Positions 15,508 through 51,255 of a stretch of 64,000 nucleotides of DNA are shown here, in pieces. The position numbers were made by a program, and so were the translations under genes. The notes beneath the pieces were generated by a model. The model did no database searches. It saw only the letters and a list, made by a program, of their open reading frames with translations, and was not told the DNA's origin. This stretch comes from an uncultured Owenweeksia sp. Its GTDB lineage: Bacteria; Bacteroidota; Bacteroidia; Flavobacteriales; Schleiferiaceae. The DNA is taken from positions 804-64,803 of the forward strand of contig CAZUCA010000009.1 in the NCBI GenBank assembly GCA_964619125.1, given 5' to 3'. How positions within the stretch are numbered: position 1 is the first letter of the stretch; the number at the start of each line of letters is the position of its first letter.

Positions 15508-15715
15508 GCAATTATTGAAGATTTTCTAAAGGCGATAACGCCCTAATTTTCTACTGTTTAACCAGCTATTTTAAGAACTATTCTACCCGTCTGGTGGGGC
15601 TTGCAGTAAGGCCTGAACGATCATTTTGTGAACAAAAAGCGGCTATTTTTTTTGTAAAAAAAGCGGAAGCCGAAAAGCTTTAATCAGAGTAGGCACAACT
15701 AACCATTACACAAAC

Positions 15716-16270
15716 ATGAAACGTATACTGCTAACCCTGGGCTGTGTTTTGGCCCTTGCAATCCCCCACTCCACCCTTGCTCAAAAAGCCAATATCGGCC
15801 TCAACCTGGCCGGAGCACTGCCCCTCGGAAATCTTGATAATATGAGCGATTTTGGCCCCGGAGGGGATCTTACCTTCGATTACTATTTCAACGATCGCTT
15901 TGACCTTGGTGTGGAACTTGGCTATCGTCGCTTTGGTTATTCTGAACCTTTTGATGAACTGGAAATGAGCATTATGCCCCTGCTACTTACCGCCGGCCTG
16001 CACACCGACATCAGCGATAATATTGACCTTTATGGTGAACTCGGGGGTGGTGCTTATATGATCAGCAGACCATTTTTTGATTCGGAGGGCGCTGAATCAT
16101 CTGTGGATGAGACCTTTGGTGGTGTGTCTCCACGCATCGGCATGGCCATGGATTTGTCGGATTTACTCTTCCTCGACGTAAGCCTGGCTTATAACCATGT
16201 CTTTATCGAAAGTGACGACTTAAATTGGCTGGGCCTGAAAGTGGGCTTGTTGTACACTATCTTCGAATAA
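15716..16270 (+). CDS. Outer-membrane beta-barrel protein (OmpA-TM/porin-like), paralog 1
   Basis: Signal peptide, alternating amphipathic strands, C-terminal aromatic strand GLLYTIFE. Confidence 0.75.
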   Translation: MKRILLTLGCVLALAIPHSTLAQKANIGLNLAGALPLGNLDNMSDFGPGGDLTFDYYFNDRFDLGVELGYRRFGYSEPFDELEMSIMPLLLTAGLHTDISDNIDLYGELGGGAYMISRPFFDSEGAESSVDETFGGVSPRIGMAMDLSDLLFLDVSLAYNHVFIESDDLNWLGLKVGLLYTIFE

Positions 16271-18244: not shown

Positions 18245-18820
18245 ATGAAAAGACATACTCTACTTGCCTTCTTACTATGCCTTAGCAGCCTTGTGGGCTT
18301 GAGCCAGGATTTGAAAATGGGAATAAAACTGGGTGCCGCAACCGCTATGGGCGATCTGGCTGAATATACCGGCAGTAGCCTGATGGCTGGTGCTAACTTC
18401 GATTATCGTATCAAGCCTTATTTCACCATCGGTCTGGATTTTCATTATATGGGCTTTGCCCTCGATACTTCCCGCCTGGATTTTGCCAGTACTCTCCTTC
18501 CCTTTCAGCTCTACGGCCACCTGCGGCTGCCGCTGGCCGATAATTTTTATCCCTATGCCGGTTTAGGAGGCGGTATTCTGTTTGTGCGCTATGGTTTTTC
18601 CCATGCTATTTCGGTAAAGCAAAGCTATTTTAACATCAGTCCACGGCTCGGGCTACAGTACGAAGTAGATGAGGAGCTTACTCTCGACCTGGCCTTTTTA
18701 TATCAACAGACCTTTGATAAACTGGGGGAAAGTGGGGACGGACTGGAACTGGGACTGAGCGACTATCGTTACTGGGCTTTTTCGCTGGGGCTGAGTTATG
18801 CTATCAGCGGCAATAATTAA
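18245..18820 (+). CDS. Outer-membrane beta-barrel protein, paralog 2
   Basis: Signal peptide; aligns by eye with 15716-16270 (GLGGG, SPRLG, terminal GLSYAI). Confidence 0.75.
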   Translation: MKRHTLLAFLLCLSSLVGLSQDLKMGIKLGAATAMGDLAEYTGSSLMAGANFDYRIKPYFTIGLDFHYMGFALDTSRLDFASTLLPFQLYGHLRLPLADNFYPYAGLGGGILFVRYGFSHAISVKQSYFNISPRLGLQYEVDEELTLDLAFLYQQTFDKLGESGDGLELGLSDYRYWAFSLGLSYAISGNN

Positions 18821-39848: not shown

Positions 39849-39902
39849 GTGTTAGGACAATTGCATTGGTCACCTTGCGGGCTCTACGCACAACAGACTT
39901 AT

Positions 39903-41687
39903 ATGCACCAATTTTATATTCCGGTAATGGGATTGTCCTTTACGGTAGATAGTCCCCTCAAGGTGGCAGCTTTTGGAATAGCCTCAGCCGTATCCCTGGG
40001 TAGCGATGCGCTATTGGAGGACATGCGGGCTTATTATTCCAACAAATTTAAGCTCCAATACAACCCTATTTCCACCAAGGAGGAGGATTACCGTGCCCGC
40101 CGGATCACTGCTTACCTCAATATGCTTTCTGGGCTGGTAAAACAAAAGTTTGAGGAACTAAGGAGATCGTCGCTGCAAGCTGATAGCGACCTGACCAGGT
40201 ATCTCGATATGCTGCCCAAGGCCCATCCGCTGAAAGCCCTCTACTTCAGTCTTCGCAGCGCCGGGGAGAGTGAAAGACCGGCTATCGAACAAGGAATCAG
40301 AAATGCTATTGAGCCTGGCTCTGTTGACGTGAATATCATGACGAAGCTCAATAAGCCTGGCTTTGACAGCAAAGGGAATAAGCTGCCCGGTGAGTATGCC
40401 GATGCCCTGGCCGCCCTAAGGGGGTATGCCCGCAGTGAACTGACAAGTGCTATTATTTTTTCGGCCGGATTTAATGCCAGACTGTATTCCTACCTGGAGC
40501 AGTTTGATGATTTCTATCCCGATGCCAGGGGCTTTATCAGGAAAAAGGTGATCCTGAAAGTGAGCGATTACCGCTCGGCAATCATCCAGGGGAAGTTTTT
40601 GGCTAAGAAAGGGATCTGGGTGTCAGAGTTCAGGGTGGAATCAGGATTAAACTGTGGTGGACACGCCTTTGCTACTGATGGCATACTGATGGGACCTATC
40701 CTTCGTGAGTTTCAGAATAATCGCATGCGACTGCAGGAAGAACTTTTTGCCCTCTGTAAGCCGGTGTGGGATAAAAGGAATCCCGGCCAATCCTTTGAAC
40801 GGCCTGAGCTGCGCTTAACCGTGCAGGGGGGCATTGGCACCGGTGAGGAACATCGGTTTTTGATGGATCACTACGGGGTGGATGCCACCGGTTGGGGTAC
40901 GCCTTTCTTATTGGTACCCGAGGCAACCACGGTTGACAGCAGTACCTTAGAAAAGTTAATGGCCGCAACGGCGAAGGACTTGTACCTGAGCAAATCCTCT
41001 CCGCTTGGGGTGCCCTTCAATAACCTGCGCGGTTCAGATAGCGAGCGACAGCGTGAAGCACGGATGGTGAAAAACCGTCCCGGCAGTCCCTGTCTTAAAA
41101 AGTATCTGGTATCCAATACCGAGTTTACCACGGAGCCCATTTGTACGGCTTCACGACAGTATCAACATCTCAAGTTAAAGCAGCTACGCGAAGAGGCTTT
41201 ATCGGAAGATGAATTTCGGACGGCAGCGGATGAAGTGGTGCTAAAGTCGTGCCTGTGTGAAGATTTAGCGGCTACTGCCTATGTGGATTATGACATAAAG
41301 CCAAAGTTGAAACCCGCTTCTTCTATTTGTCCCGGGCCAAACCTGGCCTTTTTTTCAGGCCAGTACTCGCTGCGGGAAATGATCGCCAATATCTACGGGG
41401 AGGCCCCAGCCCTTACCCCCGCCACTCGACCGCATGTTTTTATTAATGAGCTGAAGTTGTATATCGATTACCTGCACGACCAGTGGTCTGAGTTTGGCCG
41501 GGAGATACAAGAAAAGAAAGAGGCCTATCTGCAATCCTTCAGGTTAAACCTGGAGAAAGGCATTCAATACTATCGGGAACTGGCTCCTACCATCAATTCA
41601 AGCTCTTTCAGCACTGATCTTGAAGGGCTGACCCGGCAATTGCAGGATGTGGGTGCTAAGCCTATCGAATTACTGACTGAAGTGTGA
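39903..41687 (+). CDS. Conserved Bacteroidota hypothetical protein, possibly an FMN-dependent TIM-barrel (nitronate monooxygenase/FabK-like)
   Basis: FYIPVMG, ESGLNCGGHAF, QGGIGT, GWGTPFL, CLCEDLA, CPGPNL. Start moved to ATG 39903. Confidence 0.65.
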   Translation: MHQFYIPVMGLSFTVDSPLKVAAFGIASAVSLGSDALLEDMRAYYSNKFKLQYNPISTKEEDYRARRITAYLNMLSGLVKQKFEELRRSSLQADSDLTRYLDMLPKAHPLKALYFSLRSAGESERPAIEQGIRNAIEPGSVDVNIMTKLNKPGFDSKGNKLPGEYADALAALRGYARSELTSAIIFSAGFNARLYSYLEQFDDFYPDARGFIRKKVILKVSDYRSAIIQGKFLAKKGIWVSEFRVESGLNCGGHAFATDGILMGPILREFQNNRMRLQEELFALCKPVWDKRNPGQSFERPELRLTVQGGIGTGEEHRFLMDHYGVDATGWGTPFLLVPEATTVDSSTLEKLMAATAKDLYLSKSSPLGVPFNNLRGSDSERQREARMVKNRPGSPCLKKYLVSNTEFTTEPICTASRQYQHLKLKQLREEALSEDEFRTAADEVVLKSCLCEDLAATAYVDYDIKPKLKPASSICPGPNLAFFSGQYSLREMIANIYGEAPALTPATRPHVFINELKLYIDYLHDQWSEFGREIQEKKEAYLQSFRLNLEKGIQYYRELAPTINSSSFSTDLEGLTRQLQDVGAKPIELLTEV

Positions 41688-41777
41688 CGATGTTGCCGGT
41701 TTTGAGCGCTTGTATTGACAGCGACTGTCAGGTTGCTGAGGTAGTTCCGAAATCCGTGAAACGAATGGATAGGGGGT

Positions 41778-41884
41778 AAAAAAAGAGCGCCCCGGAATGC
41801 TCCGGGGCGCTTGCTTTTCTTAACAAAGGTTGGTCTTTGTAGATTACTAACCCTATTTCCCTATAAATGAAGAACCCTGTTAAG
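41778..41884 (-). ncRNA. Candidate sRNA B (about 107 nt)
   Basis: TTTG (41917-41920), 19-nt spacer, TAATTTAG (41890-41897); ends in the 11-bp stem AGCGCCCCGGA/TCCGGGGCGCT plus T7. Confidence 0.5.
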
Positions 41885-41931
41885 TCCTTCTAAATTAGTT
41901 AAAAAAATTTAACGTCCAAATTACGGCCAAC

Positions 41932-42007
41932 AAAAAAGCGCCCCGATACCTCGGGGCGCTTTTACGAAAACTAAAACATAAAAATGAAAAAACTTGTACG
42001 CTCTTCC
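41932..42007 (-). ncRNA. Candidate sRNA A (about 75 nt)
   Basis: TTTG (42042-42045), 21-nt spacer, TATCTTTA (42013-42020); ends in the 13-bp stem AAAAGCGCCCCGA/TCGGGGCGCTTTT. Confidence 0.55.
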
Positions 42008-42150
42008 AGTCGTAAAGATAATACAAAAGAAAGAGCTTTGCCAAAAAGCGAGAACATGATAGTCTGGCTCTATCATCAGGGGTCTCATGATAGTTTAATA
42101 TGGAGGTCCCAAACTTGTTTGCTCAGACCTCCGGGCTTATCTTTGACCAT

Positions 42151-42248
42151 AGCATTGGGGCACTACCTAAGCCCCGTTGCATTTCGAAGTTTTAATTAGG
42201 TGTTATTTGGTTAGTAATCTTGAGAAGGCTCCGGTGGGAGCCTTTTCT
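42151..42248 (+). ncRNA. Candidate sRNA C (about 98 nt), or a terminated leader of the nitrilase gene
   Basis: TATCTTTG at 42138-42145; GGGGC/GCCCC hairpin; terminator AGAAGGCTCC/GGAGCCTTTT at 42223-42246. Confidence 0.5.
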
Positions 42249-42264
42249 GCTTAAAGTATTGCTT

Positions 42265-43044
42265 ATGGCCGATTTCCGACTTACCCTGGTTCAGCCCAAC
42301 CTGGTTTGGGAGAATCCTGATGCCAATTTTAAAAAGATTTCCGCCCTGCTGGCTGATAAGCCAAAGACGGATCTGATTCTCCTGCCTGAGATGTTTCCCA
42401 CTGGCTTCAGTATGAACCCCGCCCAGAATTTTGAAGAGGACCATGGTCCGGCGCTGCGATATATGCAGGAGCTGGCTGCAGAGCACAATGCTGCGGTCAG
42501 TGGCAGTGTGATTGTGAAAGAAGGTGAAAACTATTACAACCGCCTGTATTTTGTTTGGCCGGAAGGGCGGTATAGGCACTATGACAAAAGGCATCTCTTT
42601 AGCTATGCGGGTGAGGAAAAGGTATACAATGCCGGCGAGCAGCATTTGCTGGTGGAGCACCGGGGCTGGAAGCTCATGCCCCTGATTTGTTATGACCTGC
42701 GCTTTCCGGTTTGGTGCCGAAATACCGCTGCAGTAGACCTGCAGTTTTATGTGGCCAATTGGCCCGAGCGACGGGCCACGGCCTGGAAATCCCTGCTGAA
42801 GGCCCGCGCCATCGAAAATATGTGCGTGGTGGCGGGGCTCAACCGCGTCGGTGCCGATGCCAATGAGGTAGAGCACTCGGGCGACTCAATGGTTTTTGAT
42901 GAATTGGGTGAGCCACTCTTAGAACTTAGCCCCTCTGTGGAAGAGTGTGCCACGGTGGTACTGGATCAGGAAAAGCTGCGCAAAAGCCGCGAGCGTTTTC
43001 GCTTTCTCGATGACCGTGATCACTTCACTTTTTTACGGCCCTGA
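42265..43044 (+). CDS. Nitrilase-family amidohydrolase (YafV/omega-amidase-like)
   Basis: LPEMF (Glu), YDKRHLF (Lys), LICYDLRFP (Cys), VANWP. Start moved to ATG 42265. Confidence 0.92.
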   Translation: MADFRLTLVQPNLVWENPDANFKKISALLADKPKTDLILLPEMFPTGFSMNPAQNFEEDHGPALRYMQELAAEHNAAVSGSVIVKEGENYYNRLYFVWPEGRYRHYDKRHLFSYAGEEKVYNAGEQHLLVEHRGWKLMPLICYDLRFPVWCRNTAAVDLQFYVANWPERRATAWKSLLKARAIENMCVVAGLNRVGADANEVEHSGDSMVFDELGEPLLELSPSVEECATVVLDQEKLRKSRERFRFLDDRDHFTFLRP

Positions 43045-50271: not shown

Positions 50272-51255
50272 ATGAAGAAACTCATAATGGGAATGCTGGC
50301 TGTGGCCACGCTTTCCTCCTGCGTAAGCAGTAAAATACACCAGGAACTGCAAGCTAAATACCGCGAGCTGGACGAGCAAAATGTGGCTCTTCGTAAGGAG
50401 AATGACGAGCTGAAATCAGATCTTGGTCAGGCTCAGGATCGCCTCAACCGCCTCGAAAAGGATTTGGCCCGCGCTGCTGAGGATACCACCACCATGGGGC
50501 GCAAGTATCGCTCGCTGCAAAACAAATACCGCGAACTCAATAAAAACTATGAGTTCCTGCTGGAGAATAACAATGCCTTGATGGCCAGTAACCAGGCTGA
50601 AAATCAAAAGCTTATTAAGAAGCTCAATACCCTGCAGCTTGAGTTGCAGGCCAAAGAGGATTCGCTGGCTTCAGAGCAGGATAAACTCGATTATCTCAGC
50701 ACTGAATTACAGAAGCGCGAAGCACGGGTTTATGAACTTGAGTCGCTTATCGCCCAGCAGGAAAGCAAGGTGAATGAAGTGCGTAAAAAGCTGAAGGATG
50801 CCCTCTTTAATTTCGAGGGCAAAGGCCTGAGTGTAGAGCAGCGCAACGGAAAGGTATATGTGTCACTCGAAAACAGCCTGCTGTTTCCCAGTGGCAGCTG
50901 GAATGTGCAGTCACGTGGCAAGGAAGCCCTTGATGAACTGGCCAAAGTGCTTGCATCTAATAAAGATCTCAATGTACTGGTAGAAGGCCATACCGATAGC
51001 GATGCCTTTAACGGCAGCACCGCCATTAAGGACAACTGGGACCTCAGTGTGATGCGTGCCACCTCTATCGTCAAAATTCTTACTGACAACCCCGGGGTTG
51101 ACCCCCAGCGTATCACGGCGGCCGGGCGCAGCGAATACCTGCCCATTGCCAGCAACGAAACCAGGGAAGGCAAGGCCAAAAACCGCCGCACCGAAATTAT
51201 TATCACCCCCAACCTCGACGAACTGATGCAGGTACTGGGTGAGGCAAACCCTTAA
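50272..51255 (+). CDS. OmpA/MotB-family lipoprotein with a long coiled coil
   Basis: Lipobox LSSC; about 150-aa coiled coil; LLFPSGS, VEGHTD, NWDLSVMRA, NRRTEII. Confidence 0.9.
   Translation: MKKLIMGMLAVATLSSCVSSKIHQELQAKYRELDEQNVALRKENDELKSDLGQAQDRLNRLEKDLARAAEDTTTMGRKYRSLQNKYRELNKNYEFLLENNNALMASNQAENQKLIKKLNTLQLELQAKEDSLASEQDKLDYLSTELQKREARVYELESLIAQQESKVNEVRKKLKDALFNFEGKGLSVEQRNGKVYVSLENSLLFPSGSWNVQSRGKEALDELAKVLASNKDLNVLVEGHTDSDAFNGSTAIKDNWDLSVMRATSIVKILTDNPGVDPQRITAAGRSEYLPIASNETREGKAKNRRTEIIITPNLDELMQVLGEANP

What the first reader, a model, noticed from the sequence alone, without database searches (positions are those of the whole stretch)
41841..42220. The candidate sRNAs read as antisense copies of generic Bacteroidota translation-initiation regions
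A contains TTTTTTCATTTTTATGTTTTAGTTTT, the complement of AAAACTAAAACATAAAAATGAAAAAA. B contains TTCTTCATTTATAGGGAAATAGGGTTAGT, the complement of ACTAACCCTATTTCCCTATAAATGAAGAA. C is complementary to ACTAACCAAATAACACCTAATTAAAAC. These mimic A-rich, SD-less leaders followed by ATG-AAA/AAG. In this window the OMP1 leader has ACTAACC (15698-15704) 11 nt before ATGAA, and the fasciclin leader has GCTAACC. The RNAs may therefore silence sets of envelope-protein mRNAs by masking start codons.
Basis: inference. Interest (0 to 1): 0.65.

Follow-up and report, generated by a model that had tools for sequence, protein, structure and literature searches.

The report
Three conserved small RNA genes
The gap between two enzyme genes holds three short non-coding RNA genes that are almost letter-perfect across a whole family of marine Owenweeksia-like bacteria; two carry a stretch that could cover the start codon of messenger RNAs, as known Bacteroides small RNAs do, but their targets are unknown.

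Summary
The quoted sequences are at the stated places. The interval 41688-42264 holds three small-RNA genes: B (minus, ~41886-41778), A (minus, ~42007-41932) and C (plus, ~42151-42253). Each has a Bacteroidota -7 promoter box (TAnnTTTG-like) and a hairpin plus U-run terminator on its own strand.

In 8 distinct related loci, including Owenweeksia hongkongensis, the flanking genes are only 55-71% identical in DNA. The A core is 32/32 identical, the B core 98-100%, and the C core 95% in three of the five relatives that carry it. The terminator stems differ in sequence but keep pairing. The plus-strand mini-ORFs change frame by 1-nt indels, and the 71-aa ORF has no homologue.

The "antisense copy of a start region" reading holds for A, whose complement is the best start-region look-alike in the window. 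It holds moderately for B and not for C, which has no anti-start codon. The ACTAACC/GCTAACC links to the OMP and fasciclin leaders are at chance frequency. Seed pairing with the 55 start regions in the window is no better than for shuffled seeds. Only start-registered pairing is marginal (P 0.02-0.07), best for an OmpA-family lipoprotein and an OMP barrel.

No Rfam family matches. These are new sRNA families with the same proposed working as GibS/FopS. Targets and expression are untested.

The parts
41778..41886 (-). sRNA B, about 108 nt (ends predicted, +/-3 nt). It has a closing stem CUUAACAGGGUU/AACCUUUGUUAAG around an invariant ~45-nt region that contains UUCUUCAUUU and GGUUAGUAAUCU, followed by terminator T1.
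   Evidence: 41815-41907 is 100% identical in contigs of unrelated metagenomes that carry a different terminator. The 49-nt core is 98-100% identical in 8 loci. Folding gives z = -4.35, and the same fold is predicted in all homologues.
41890..41920 (-). B promoter: -7 box TAATTTAG (41897->41890), a 19-nt spacer, and -33 TTTG (41920->41917).
   Evidence: Read from the sequence. A box of the form TAnnTT(T/A)(A/G) sits at the same position in all 9 loci. Consensus from PMC7366714. It is weaker than the A and C boxes.
41786..41811 (.). Hairpin T1, the terminator of B (minus-strand tail CUUUUUUU). In this window it also terminates the 612-aa gene (plus-strand tail GCTTTTCTT).
   Evidence: The terminator scan finds it on both strands. 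In the relatives the stem sequence differs but pairing is kept: 7 of 9 pairs show changes on both sides. In L157 the U-run is on the minus strand only; in L183 there are runs on both strands.
41932..42007 (-). sRNA A, about 76 nt. It has a weak 5' hairpin (GAAGAGC.../...UUUUUUC), a single-stranded U-rich region AUUUUUAUGUUUUAGUUUUCGU, and terminator T2. The invariant core is AAGUUUUUUCAUUUUUAUGUUUUAGUUUUCGU.
   Evidence: The core is 32/32 identical in 8 relatives. Folding gives z = -6.42. The consensus fold shows compensated terminator pairs.
42013..42045 (-). A promoter: -7 box TATCTTTA (42020->42013), a 21-nt spacer, and -33 TTTG (42045->42042).
   Evidence: All 8 relatives have a perfect TAnnTTTG at the aligned position (TATATTTG, TATCTTTG or TACTTTTG).
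41934..41963 (-). Hairpin T2, the terminator of A (GCGCCCCGA/UCGGGGCGC followed by UUUUUUGUU on the minus strand).
   Evidence: Inverted repeat I3, 13 nt, 100% complementary. The stems differ between loci, each perfectly paired and followed by 6 or more U on the minus strand. There is no T-run on the plus strand in the relatives (CAACG, TAACG, TCTACG).
42151..42253 (+). RNA C, about 102 nt. It has a variable 5' hairpin (42154-42178), a conserved stretch CGAAGUUUnnAUUAGGUGUUAUUUGGUUAGUAAUCUUGA, and terminator T3 whose tail ends 12 nt before the amidohydrolase ATG at 42265.
   Evidence: C is present in L157, L183, L201, L204, L205, L211 and L212. It is absent in L202/L203, L207/L208 and L209/L210. 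Folding gives z = -3.87.
42138..42145 (+). C -7 box TATCTTTG.
   Evidence: Read from the sequence. TATATTTG, TATATTTA or TACCTTTG lies 60-95 nt upstream of the conserved box in L204, L211, L157, L212 and L183.
42222..42253 (+). Hairpin T3 plus the tail UUUUCUGCUU, the terminator of C.
   Evidence: Inverted repeat I11. The stems differ between loci (GGCUCC.., GGGUCUUAC.., GGCUCCC..), each followed by a U-rich tail. It was not picked up by the simple scan because the tail is interrupted.
41841..41852 (-). Box GGUUAGUAAUCU in B. It is one arm of the 12-bp inverted repeat.
   Evidence: I4. Invariant in all B homologues.
42209..42220 (+). The same box GGUUAGUAAUCU in C, the other arm of the inverted repeat. 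The repeat is a by-product of B and C being partial paralogues in opposite orientation.
   Evidence: There are no other exact copies in the window.
41862..41880 (-). Anti-start module of B (ACAGGGUUCUUCAUUUAUA). It is homologous to that of A at 41979-41997 (ACAAGUUUUUUCAUUUUUA).
   Evidence: Direct repeat D1, 79% identical. Both copies are invariant across loci.
42021..42137 (.). Variable spacer between the divergent A and C genes. It holds their promoter regions and is not conserved. It also holds most of the spurious 71-aa ORF 41984-42199.
   Evidence: In the relatives the spacer is about 190-200 nt of unalignable sequence (201 and 193 letters lie between the two sides of the joint). tblastn of the ORF finds no homologue.

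Best explanation
The interval 41688-42264 carries three independently transcribed, terminator-ended small RNAs, conserved across Owenweeksia-like Flavobacteriales. A and B lie in tandem on the minus strand. C is divergent from A on the plus strand. They are partial paralogues: A and B share a 5' module (U/C)UUCAUUU(U/A)UA, and B and C share a 3' box GGUUAGUAAUCU.

The most likely working is trans-acting base-pairing through long, largely unstructured seeds, as in Bacteroides GibS/FopS. The shared A/B module would lie across the AUG and the first Lys/Asn codons of SD-less mRNAs, typically MKK/MKN-type signal-peptide genes, and block initiation. The B/C box would recognise a different site that is not a start codon.

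Shown here: gene structure, strand and selection. Inferred: pairing with start regions, the repression, and the target class.
For: Conservation against background. The A core is 32/32 identical and the B core 98-100% in 8 loci, while the amidohydrolase is 55-65% and sdhB 66-71% identical in DNA. A stretch of 93 nt of B is identical in tidal-flat and marine runs that carry a different terminator.

Strand. The terminator stems differ in sequence but keep pairing; 7 of 9 pairs are compensated in A and in B (stems listed). The U-runs follow on the minus strand for T1 and T2 and on the plus strand for T3. Canonical TAnnTTTG boxes stand at fixed positions on the same strands (consensus from PMC7366714).

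Non-coding. The mini-ORFs shift frame through 1-nt indels (column 25, column 21). The 71-aa ORF has no homologue.

Start-region likeness. (A 10.9, B 4.5 on the start-region matrix).

Start-registered pairing. Means are above shuffled-flank controls at P = 0.02-0.07. The best hits are the OmpA-family lipoprotein gene 50272-51255 (10 Watson-Crick pairs with B, AAAUGAAGAA) and the OMP barrel gene 18245-18820.

Precedent. GibS uses a 30-50-nt single-stranded seed across start codons. FopS sRNAs of 65-70 nt block susC translation (PMC7366714, PMC11697453).
Against: - No expression data. Only assembled contigs of metatranscriptomes were available, and those contigs run past the predicted ends.
- Duplex energies against the 55 start regions are not better than for shuffled or reversed seeds (fraction of shuffles at least as good 0.47 for A, 0.07 for B, 0.35 for C).
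- The registered-pairing signal is marginal, post hoc, and confounded by the MKK bias of signal peptides.
- In the predicted folds the CAU of A sits at the edge of its 5' hairpin, and that of B sits in a weakly paired internal region.
- Full-length invariance (about 50 nt in B) is more than a short seed needs and could reflect a protein or another RNA partner.
- B's internal helices are invariant, so there is no covariation for or against them.
Confidence: 0.5

Rival explanations
1. C is not, or not only, a trans-acting sRNA. It is the 5' leader of the YafV-like amidohydrolase gene, and T3 acts as an attenuator. The conserved box next to T3 would bind a factor that sets read-through, and B, which carries the same box, could compete for that factor.
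For: The T3 tail ends 12 nt before the ATG at 42265 (20-30 nt from stem to ATG in the other loci). No TAnnTTTG box fits between T3 and the ATG in any C-bearing locus. Loci without C have TAAATTTG directly before the ATG (L202 and L209). The box lies 1-6 nt from the T3 stem. The downstream gene is a PRK10438 amidohydrolase.
Against: C is missing from three relatives that have the same gene. No conserved alternative (antiterminator) pairing was found by inspection. The conserved part is predicted to be single-stranded, and the only structured part varies without a common shape. No Rfam riboswitch or leader matches.
Confidence: 0.3
2. The RNAs work by binding a protein or a conserved RNA such as the ribosome or an RRM-type RNA-binding protein, not by masking start codons. 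The start-region look is then a side effect of U-richness.
For: Invariance extends over 32-50 nt, not just a short seed. B has three (A/U)AGGG repeats. C contains AGGUGUU. The in-window pairing test is null. RbpB binds FopS/GibS in Bacteroides (PMC11697453).
Against: GibS-type extended seeds are also long and conserved (PMC7366714). The CAU-centred module shared by A and B is hard to explain by composition alone. No partner could be tested here.
Confidence: 0.15
3. The plus strand is the functional one. ATG 41867 and ATG 41984 start real mini-ORFs (small proteins, leader peptides or type I toxins), and the minus-strand RNAs are absent or are merely their antisense partners.
For: Both ATGs have excellent start-region scores. 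MKNP and MKKL are conserved because the DNA is conserved.
Against: 1-nt indels change the frame after codon 4-5 (MKKLIKALHF.. against MKKLYKLF..; MKNPVKSF* against MKNPR*). ORF lengths are 5-71 aa with no similarity. In most relatives sdhB has its own plus-strand terminator upstream of T1, and no plus-strand -7 box precedes the ATGs. The peptides are not hydrophobic in the way toxins are.
Confidence: 0.04
4. The 12-bp inverted repeat marks a DNA element: an invertible promoter segment or a miniature transposon spanning 41841-42220.
For: A perfect 12-bp inverted repeat sits exactly at the ends of the finding. Invertible promoters are common in Bacteroidota (general knowledge).
Against: About 1.5 such repeats within 400 bp are expected per 64 kb by my own estimate. 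Conservation runs beyond the arms, since B extends to 41815. The orientation is the same in all 9 loci. No strand-switch joints were seen in contigs of 8 runs. Three relatives lack the C arm altogether. There is no target-site duplication. Synteny is fixed, there is no second copy in the window, and no match in viral contigs.
Confidence: 0.02

Closest known systems
FopS family and GibS of Bacteroides thetaiotaomicron (Rfam RF04319; PMC11697453, PMC7366714)
   Same: Same phylum. Intergenic RNAs of 65-110 nt driven by TAnnTTTG promoters. [quoted passage not shown] Partial paralogues that share seed modules (GibS R1 is shared with FopS). The demonstrated action is pairing around the start codon of SD-less mRNAs for outer-membrane proteins, which blocks initiation.
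   Different: No sequence or covariance-model similarity: the FopS model scores 16.6 bits against a gathering score of 56, and only on the terminator. Here there are three linked genes at one syntenic locus rather than 14 dispersed copies. The lineage is different (Owenweeksia-like Flavobacteriales). Targets, RbpB dependence and inducing signal are unknown. B is predicted to be enclosed by a long-range stem.
Enterobacterial and Vibrio OMP-repressing sRNAs (MicA, RybB, MicC, MicF, VrrA)
   Different: Those depend on Hfq, pair at or near Shine-Dalgarno sites, and several are sigma-E controlled. Here there are no SD sites and the promoters are of the housekeeping type. Rfam MicC and VrrA scores are far below threshold (18.9 against 90; 19.7 against 50).
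RteR sRNA of Bacteroides (RF04181)
   Same: The best Bacteroidota hit in Rfam for A: a 5' hairpin, a U-rich stretch and a terminator.
   Different: 32.1 bits against a gathering score of 72, and the match comes from generic features. RteR belongs to a conjugative transposon, and nothing of that kind is here.
Rfp18 of Flavobacterium psychrophilum (PMC9723704)
   Same: A conserved trans sRNA in Flavobacteriales with predicted targets encoding secreted or envelope proteins.
   Different: Rfp18 is conserved within the genus Flavobacterium, has a multi-stem-loop structure, and its loss lowers target mRNA levels. I could not make a sequence comparison because its sequence was not at hand.

Membership tests
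FopS (Rfam RF04319) | Score of the covariance model at or above the gathering score (56 bits) | tested here: not met
   16.6 bits, E = 8.7, at 41775-41824 (-), covering only terminator T1. Nothing reaches the gathering score in the whole window.
FopS (Rfam RF04319) | A single-stranded 5' seed followed directly by a terminator hairpin, 65-70 nt, with a sigma-ABfr promoter | tested here: met
   A fits by prediction: about 76 nt, a TATCTTTA box, a U-rich single strand and T2. B and C are longer and carry an extra stem.
FopS (Rfam RF04319) | Binds start regions of susC-like mRNAs and is counteracted by RbpB | not testable with these tools
   Needs the whole genome and experiments. The in-window test is inconclusive.
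Trans-acting base-pairing sRNA (general class) | Own promoter and own intrinsic terminator in an intergenic region | tested here: met
   Conserved -7 boxes and covarying terminators with strand-specific U-runs.
Trans-acting base-pairing sRNA (general class) | An unstructured region under stronger selection than its surroundings | tested here: met
   Cores are 95-100% identical against 55-71% for the neighbouring genes, and the spacers cannot be aligned.
Trans-acting base-pairing sRNA (general class) | The transcript is detected with the predicted ends and strand | tested here: inconclusive
   The B core is present in many metatranscriptome assemblies. Only contigs without strand information are available, and they overrun the predicted ends.
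Trans-acting base-pairing sRNA (general class) | Complementarity to targets beyond chance | tested here: inconclusive
   Null for free duplex energy. Marginal for start-registered pairing. Only 55 genes were available.
RteR (RF04181) and rimP leader (RF01770) | Gathering score (72 and 47 bits) | tested here: not met
   32.1 and 32.5 bits.
Invertible promoter (inverton) | Both orientations of the segment between the inverted repeats occur | tested here: not met
   One orientation in 9 loci. No strand-changing joints in 8 runs.
Riboswitch or attenuator leader (for C) | Sits between the promoter and the regulated gene, with a terminator just before the start codon | tested here: met
   The T3 tail ends 12 nt before the ATG at 42265, and there is no intervening -7 box.
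Riboswitch or attenuator leader (for C) | A conserved structured sensor domain with covariation and an alternative antiterminator fold | tested here: not met
   The conserved part is predicted to be single-stranded. The 5' hairpin differs in sequence and size between loci. No alternative fold was found. C is absent from three orthologous loci.
Type I toxin-antitoxin | A conserved small hydrophobic ORF overlapped by an antisense RNA | tested here: not met
   The ORFs are not conserved in frame, length or sequence.

The most novel reading that the evidence does not exclude
The A/B module is a class-wide 'anti-Kozak' regulator. By being the antisense of the consensus SD-less start region plus Met-Lys-Lys/Asn codons, it would damp initiation on a large share of signal-peptide mRNAs at once, acting as a global brake on envelope load. 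The 32-nt invariance would then be held by the sum of very many weak targets rather than by one partner. B and C would add a second, shared specificity through GGUUAGUAAUCU, and C would couple that circuit to read-through into the amidohydrolase gene.
Probability: 0.15. Interest if true: 0.75.

Novelty: new member of a known kind. Interest (0 to 1): 0.45.

Why it matters
Riboregulation in Bacteroidota is known almost only from gut Bacteroides. These would be the first described sRNA families of the marine Owenweeksia lineage. They are unusually well defined by comparison alone: promoter, seed and terminator can each be delimited, and the cores are invariant at roughly family-level divergence. 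A cultivable carrier exists (O. hongkongensis). If the A/B module does mask start codons of MKK-type mRNAs, it would show that start-codon masking by long AU-rich seeds is general in SD-less bacteria. The modular paralogy (A/B share the 5' module, B/C the 3' box) would offer a clean system to study how seeds are shuffled.

Tried and rejected
- Rfam at gathering score on the whole window and at E <= 10 on 41600-42400. Only terminator-driven sub-threshold hits came back.
- Genome-contig scan with the 612-aa neighbour. It gave 80 loci with at most 62% identity and none with the sRNAs; that gene is not part of the conserved context.
- Metagenome-contig scan with ATWKGGTTAGTAATCT. Nearly all were chance 16-mers; only L157 and L183 were homologues.
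- Exact look-up of the window's amidohydrolase found nothing on record.
- Public runs. There are no raw-read RNA runs, only contigs, so strand and transcript ends could not be read.
- More distant amidohydrolase loci (Haloflavibacter, L213; L214) have lost the sdhB synteny and have no sRNAs.
- Profile nhmmer searches found no further copy in the window or in about 200 other loci.
- Viral contigs gave no match.
- Considered and dropped: inverton, miniature transposon, type I toxin-antitoxin, coding mini-ORFs, and the ACTAACC motif as a shared target signal.
- An antiterminator for T3 was looked for by eye and not found.

Full report
**Observation**

- A complement at 41967-41993, with its ATG at 41984.
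- B complement at 41846-41874, with its ATG at 41867.
- C at 42189-42215 on the plus strand.

They lie in the 577-bp interval between a 612-aa ORF (39849-41687, no Pfam or NCBIfam hit) and a YafV-like C-N hydrolase gene (42265-43044). The interval has three GC-rich hairpins. T1 (41786-41811) has U-runs on both strands. T2 (41934-41963) has its U-run on the minus strand. T3 (42222-42247) has its tail on the plus strand. The ends of the finding coincide with a perfect 12-bp inverted repeat, AGATTACTAACC / GGTTAGTAATCT.

**Are they genes?**

Rfam finds nothing at gathering score. At E <= 10 only generic terminator-driven hits appear: rimP 32.5 against 47, rteR 32.1 against 72, FopS 16.6 against 56.

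Laying public contigs on the region gave the first strong signal. Positions 41815-41907 are 100% identical in a tidal-flat metagenome and a marine metatranscriptome, and there the stretch abuts a different hairpin.

I then collected the orthologous interval, sdhB - [RNAs] - amidohydrolase, from 8 distinct relatives:
- L157 and L183, from a DNA-pattern scan that otherwise returned only chance hits.
- L202/L203, L204 (Owenweeksia hongkongensis), L207/L208, L209/L210, L211 and L212, found through amidohydrolase homologues.

Against the window, the amidohydrolase is 55-65% and sdhB 66-71% identical in DNA. The 32-nt A core is identical in all eight and the 49-nt B core is 98-100% identical. The C core is 95% identical in L157, L204 and L211, and lower in L183 (82%) and L212 (69%). 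The spacer between A and C cannot be aligned.

**Strand**

The terminator stems differ in sequence from locus to locus but always pair. Compensatory changes occur in 7 of 9 pairs for both A and B, even on a sequence-only alignment (stems).

In the relatives the U-run after T2 is on the minus strand only. On the plus strand T2 is followed by CAACG, TAACG or TCTACG. In most relatives sdhB has its own separate plus-strand terminator upstream of T1.

On the same strands there are Bacteroidota -7 boxes (TAnnTTTG; PMC7366714):
- A: a perfect box in all 8 relatives, TATCTTTA in the window (42020->42013), with TTTG 21 nt upstream.
- C: TATCTTTG at 42138-42145, and TATATTTG or TATATTTA in the relatives.
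- B: a weaker TAATTTAG at 41897->41890, with TTTG 19 nt upstream.

So A (~42007-41932) and B (~41886-41778) are minus-strand RNAs and C (~42151-42253) is a plus-strand RNA. The transcript ends are predictions.

**Coding rivals**

The plus-strand mini-ORFs keep only MKKL and MKNP. After that, 1-nt indels shift the frame (MKKLIKALHF... against MKKLYKLF...; MKNPVKSF* against MKNPR*). The ORF lengths run from 5 to 71 aa. The window's 71-aa ORF has no translated homologue in the relatives.

**Anatomy**

- A: a weak 5' hairpin, a U-rich single strand and the terminator (z = -6.4).
- B: a closing stem CUUAACAGGGUU/AACCUUUGUUAAG around an invariant ~45 nt, then the terminator (z = -4.4). Its inner pairs never vary, so they are neither supported nor contradicted.
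- C: a 5' hairpin that differs in every lineage, a conserved single strand and the terminator (z = -3.9).
- A and B share ACA(A/G)G(U/G)UU(U/C)UUCAUUU(U/A)UA (repeat D1).
- B and C share GGUUAGUAAUCU. The inverted repeat is therefore a by-product of partial paralogy in opposite orientation.
- C is absent from three relatives. A and B are always present together.
- More distant amidohydrolase loci without sdhB synteny lack all three.
- There is no further copy in the window or in about 200 other loci, and none in viral contigs.

**The start-region claim**

I built a position-weight matrix from 55 approximate gene starts in the window. These starts show 33-44% A at most positions from -17 to -3 and 40-53% A at +4 to +9, against a 25% background. 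On this matrix the A complement scores 10.9, the best of 1877 non-gene ATGs and above every gene. The B complement scores 4.5, the 99.1 percentile. C has no anti-start codon.

The 7-mers ACTAACC and GCTAACC, which tie the RNAs to the OMP (15716) and fasciclin (52488) leaders, occur at chance frequency: 5 against 5.6 expected and 6 against 8.5 expected. C pairing with the OMP1 leader gives -19.0 kcal/mol, which is inside the shuffled range.

Free duplex energies of the three seeds against the 55 start regions are no better than for shuffled or reversed seeds.

When the CAU is forced onto the AUG, contiguous pairing is marginally above shuffled-flank controls:
- A with G-U pairs allowed: mean P = 0.02, maximum P = 0.06.
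- B with Watson-Crick pairs only: maximum P = 0.045.

The best hits are an OmpA-family lipoprotein gene (50272-51255; 10 Watson-Crick pairs with B), an OMP beta-barrel gene (18245-18820) and a lipoprotein gene (19590). It is post hoc, and it is confounded because signal-peptide genes start with MKK/MKR.

**Mechanism and comparison**

The best-supported reading is a set of trans-acting base-pairing sRNAs with extended AU-rich seeds, as shown for GibS (a 30-50-nt seed across start codons) and FopS (65-70 nt, sigma-ABfr promoter, single-stranded seed plus terminator, blocks susC translation, countered by RbpB) (PMC7366714, PMC11697453). By covariance model these RNAs are not members of those families. 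They are new families of the same kind.

For C there is a serious alternative. Its terminator tail ends 12 nt before the amidohydrolase start codon, with no promoter in between, so C may be a leader or attenuator, or a leader-derived sRNA.

A role in binding a protein or the ribosome cannot be excluded, because the invariance covers far more than a minimal seed.

**Verdict**

That they act by masking start codons of envelope-protein mRNAs is plausible but unproven (about 0.4-0.5 for A and B, lower for C).

Noticed in passing
window 15660-15695 (+): An Rfam DUF805b motif (RF02914, 49.9 bits against a gathering score of 35.6) lies directly upstream of the OMP beta-barrel gene 15716-16270. The 'OMP1 leader' therefore already carries a described cis-regulatory RNA motif, and the ACTAACC 7-mer follows it by 3 nt.
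   Followed up: partly
window 39849-41687 (+): A 612-aa ORF with no Pfam or NCBIfam hit has ~50% identical homologues across Flavobacteriales, Marinilabiliales and Ignavibacteriota. It sits between sdhB and sRNA B only in this window, not in the relatives, so it is a conserved protein family of unknown function inserted at this locus.
   Followed up: partly
L204 757-1137; L207 278-632: Small PF05635 (23S rRNA-intervening-sequence / four-helix-bundle) genes are inserted between sdhA and sdhB in two relatives. In L207 the gene is split in two.
   Followed up: no
L201, L205, L206 (contig ends 125, 73 and 48 nt upstream of the amidohydrolase ATG): Three independent assemblies break inside or just before sRNA C. 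In run X2 the B and C core unitigs have 3-4 times the depth of their flanks. The likely cause is that several co-occurring strains share the invariant cores, not that one genome has several copies. In run X38, which may be a single genome, only one contig matched.
   Followed up: partly
window 42138-42264; L202, L207, L209 upstream of the amidohydrolase gene: Presence/absence polymorphism of C. Genomes without C have a TAAATTTG box only a few nt before the amidohydrolase ATG (a near-leaderless arrangement). Genomes with C have no such box.
   Followed up: partly
window 41965-41973 (-): The invariant part of sRNA A contains AUG-UUU-UAG, a start-Phe-stop mini-frame, in a U-rich context. It is probably meaningless, but it is strictly conserved.
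   Followed up: no
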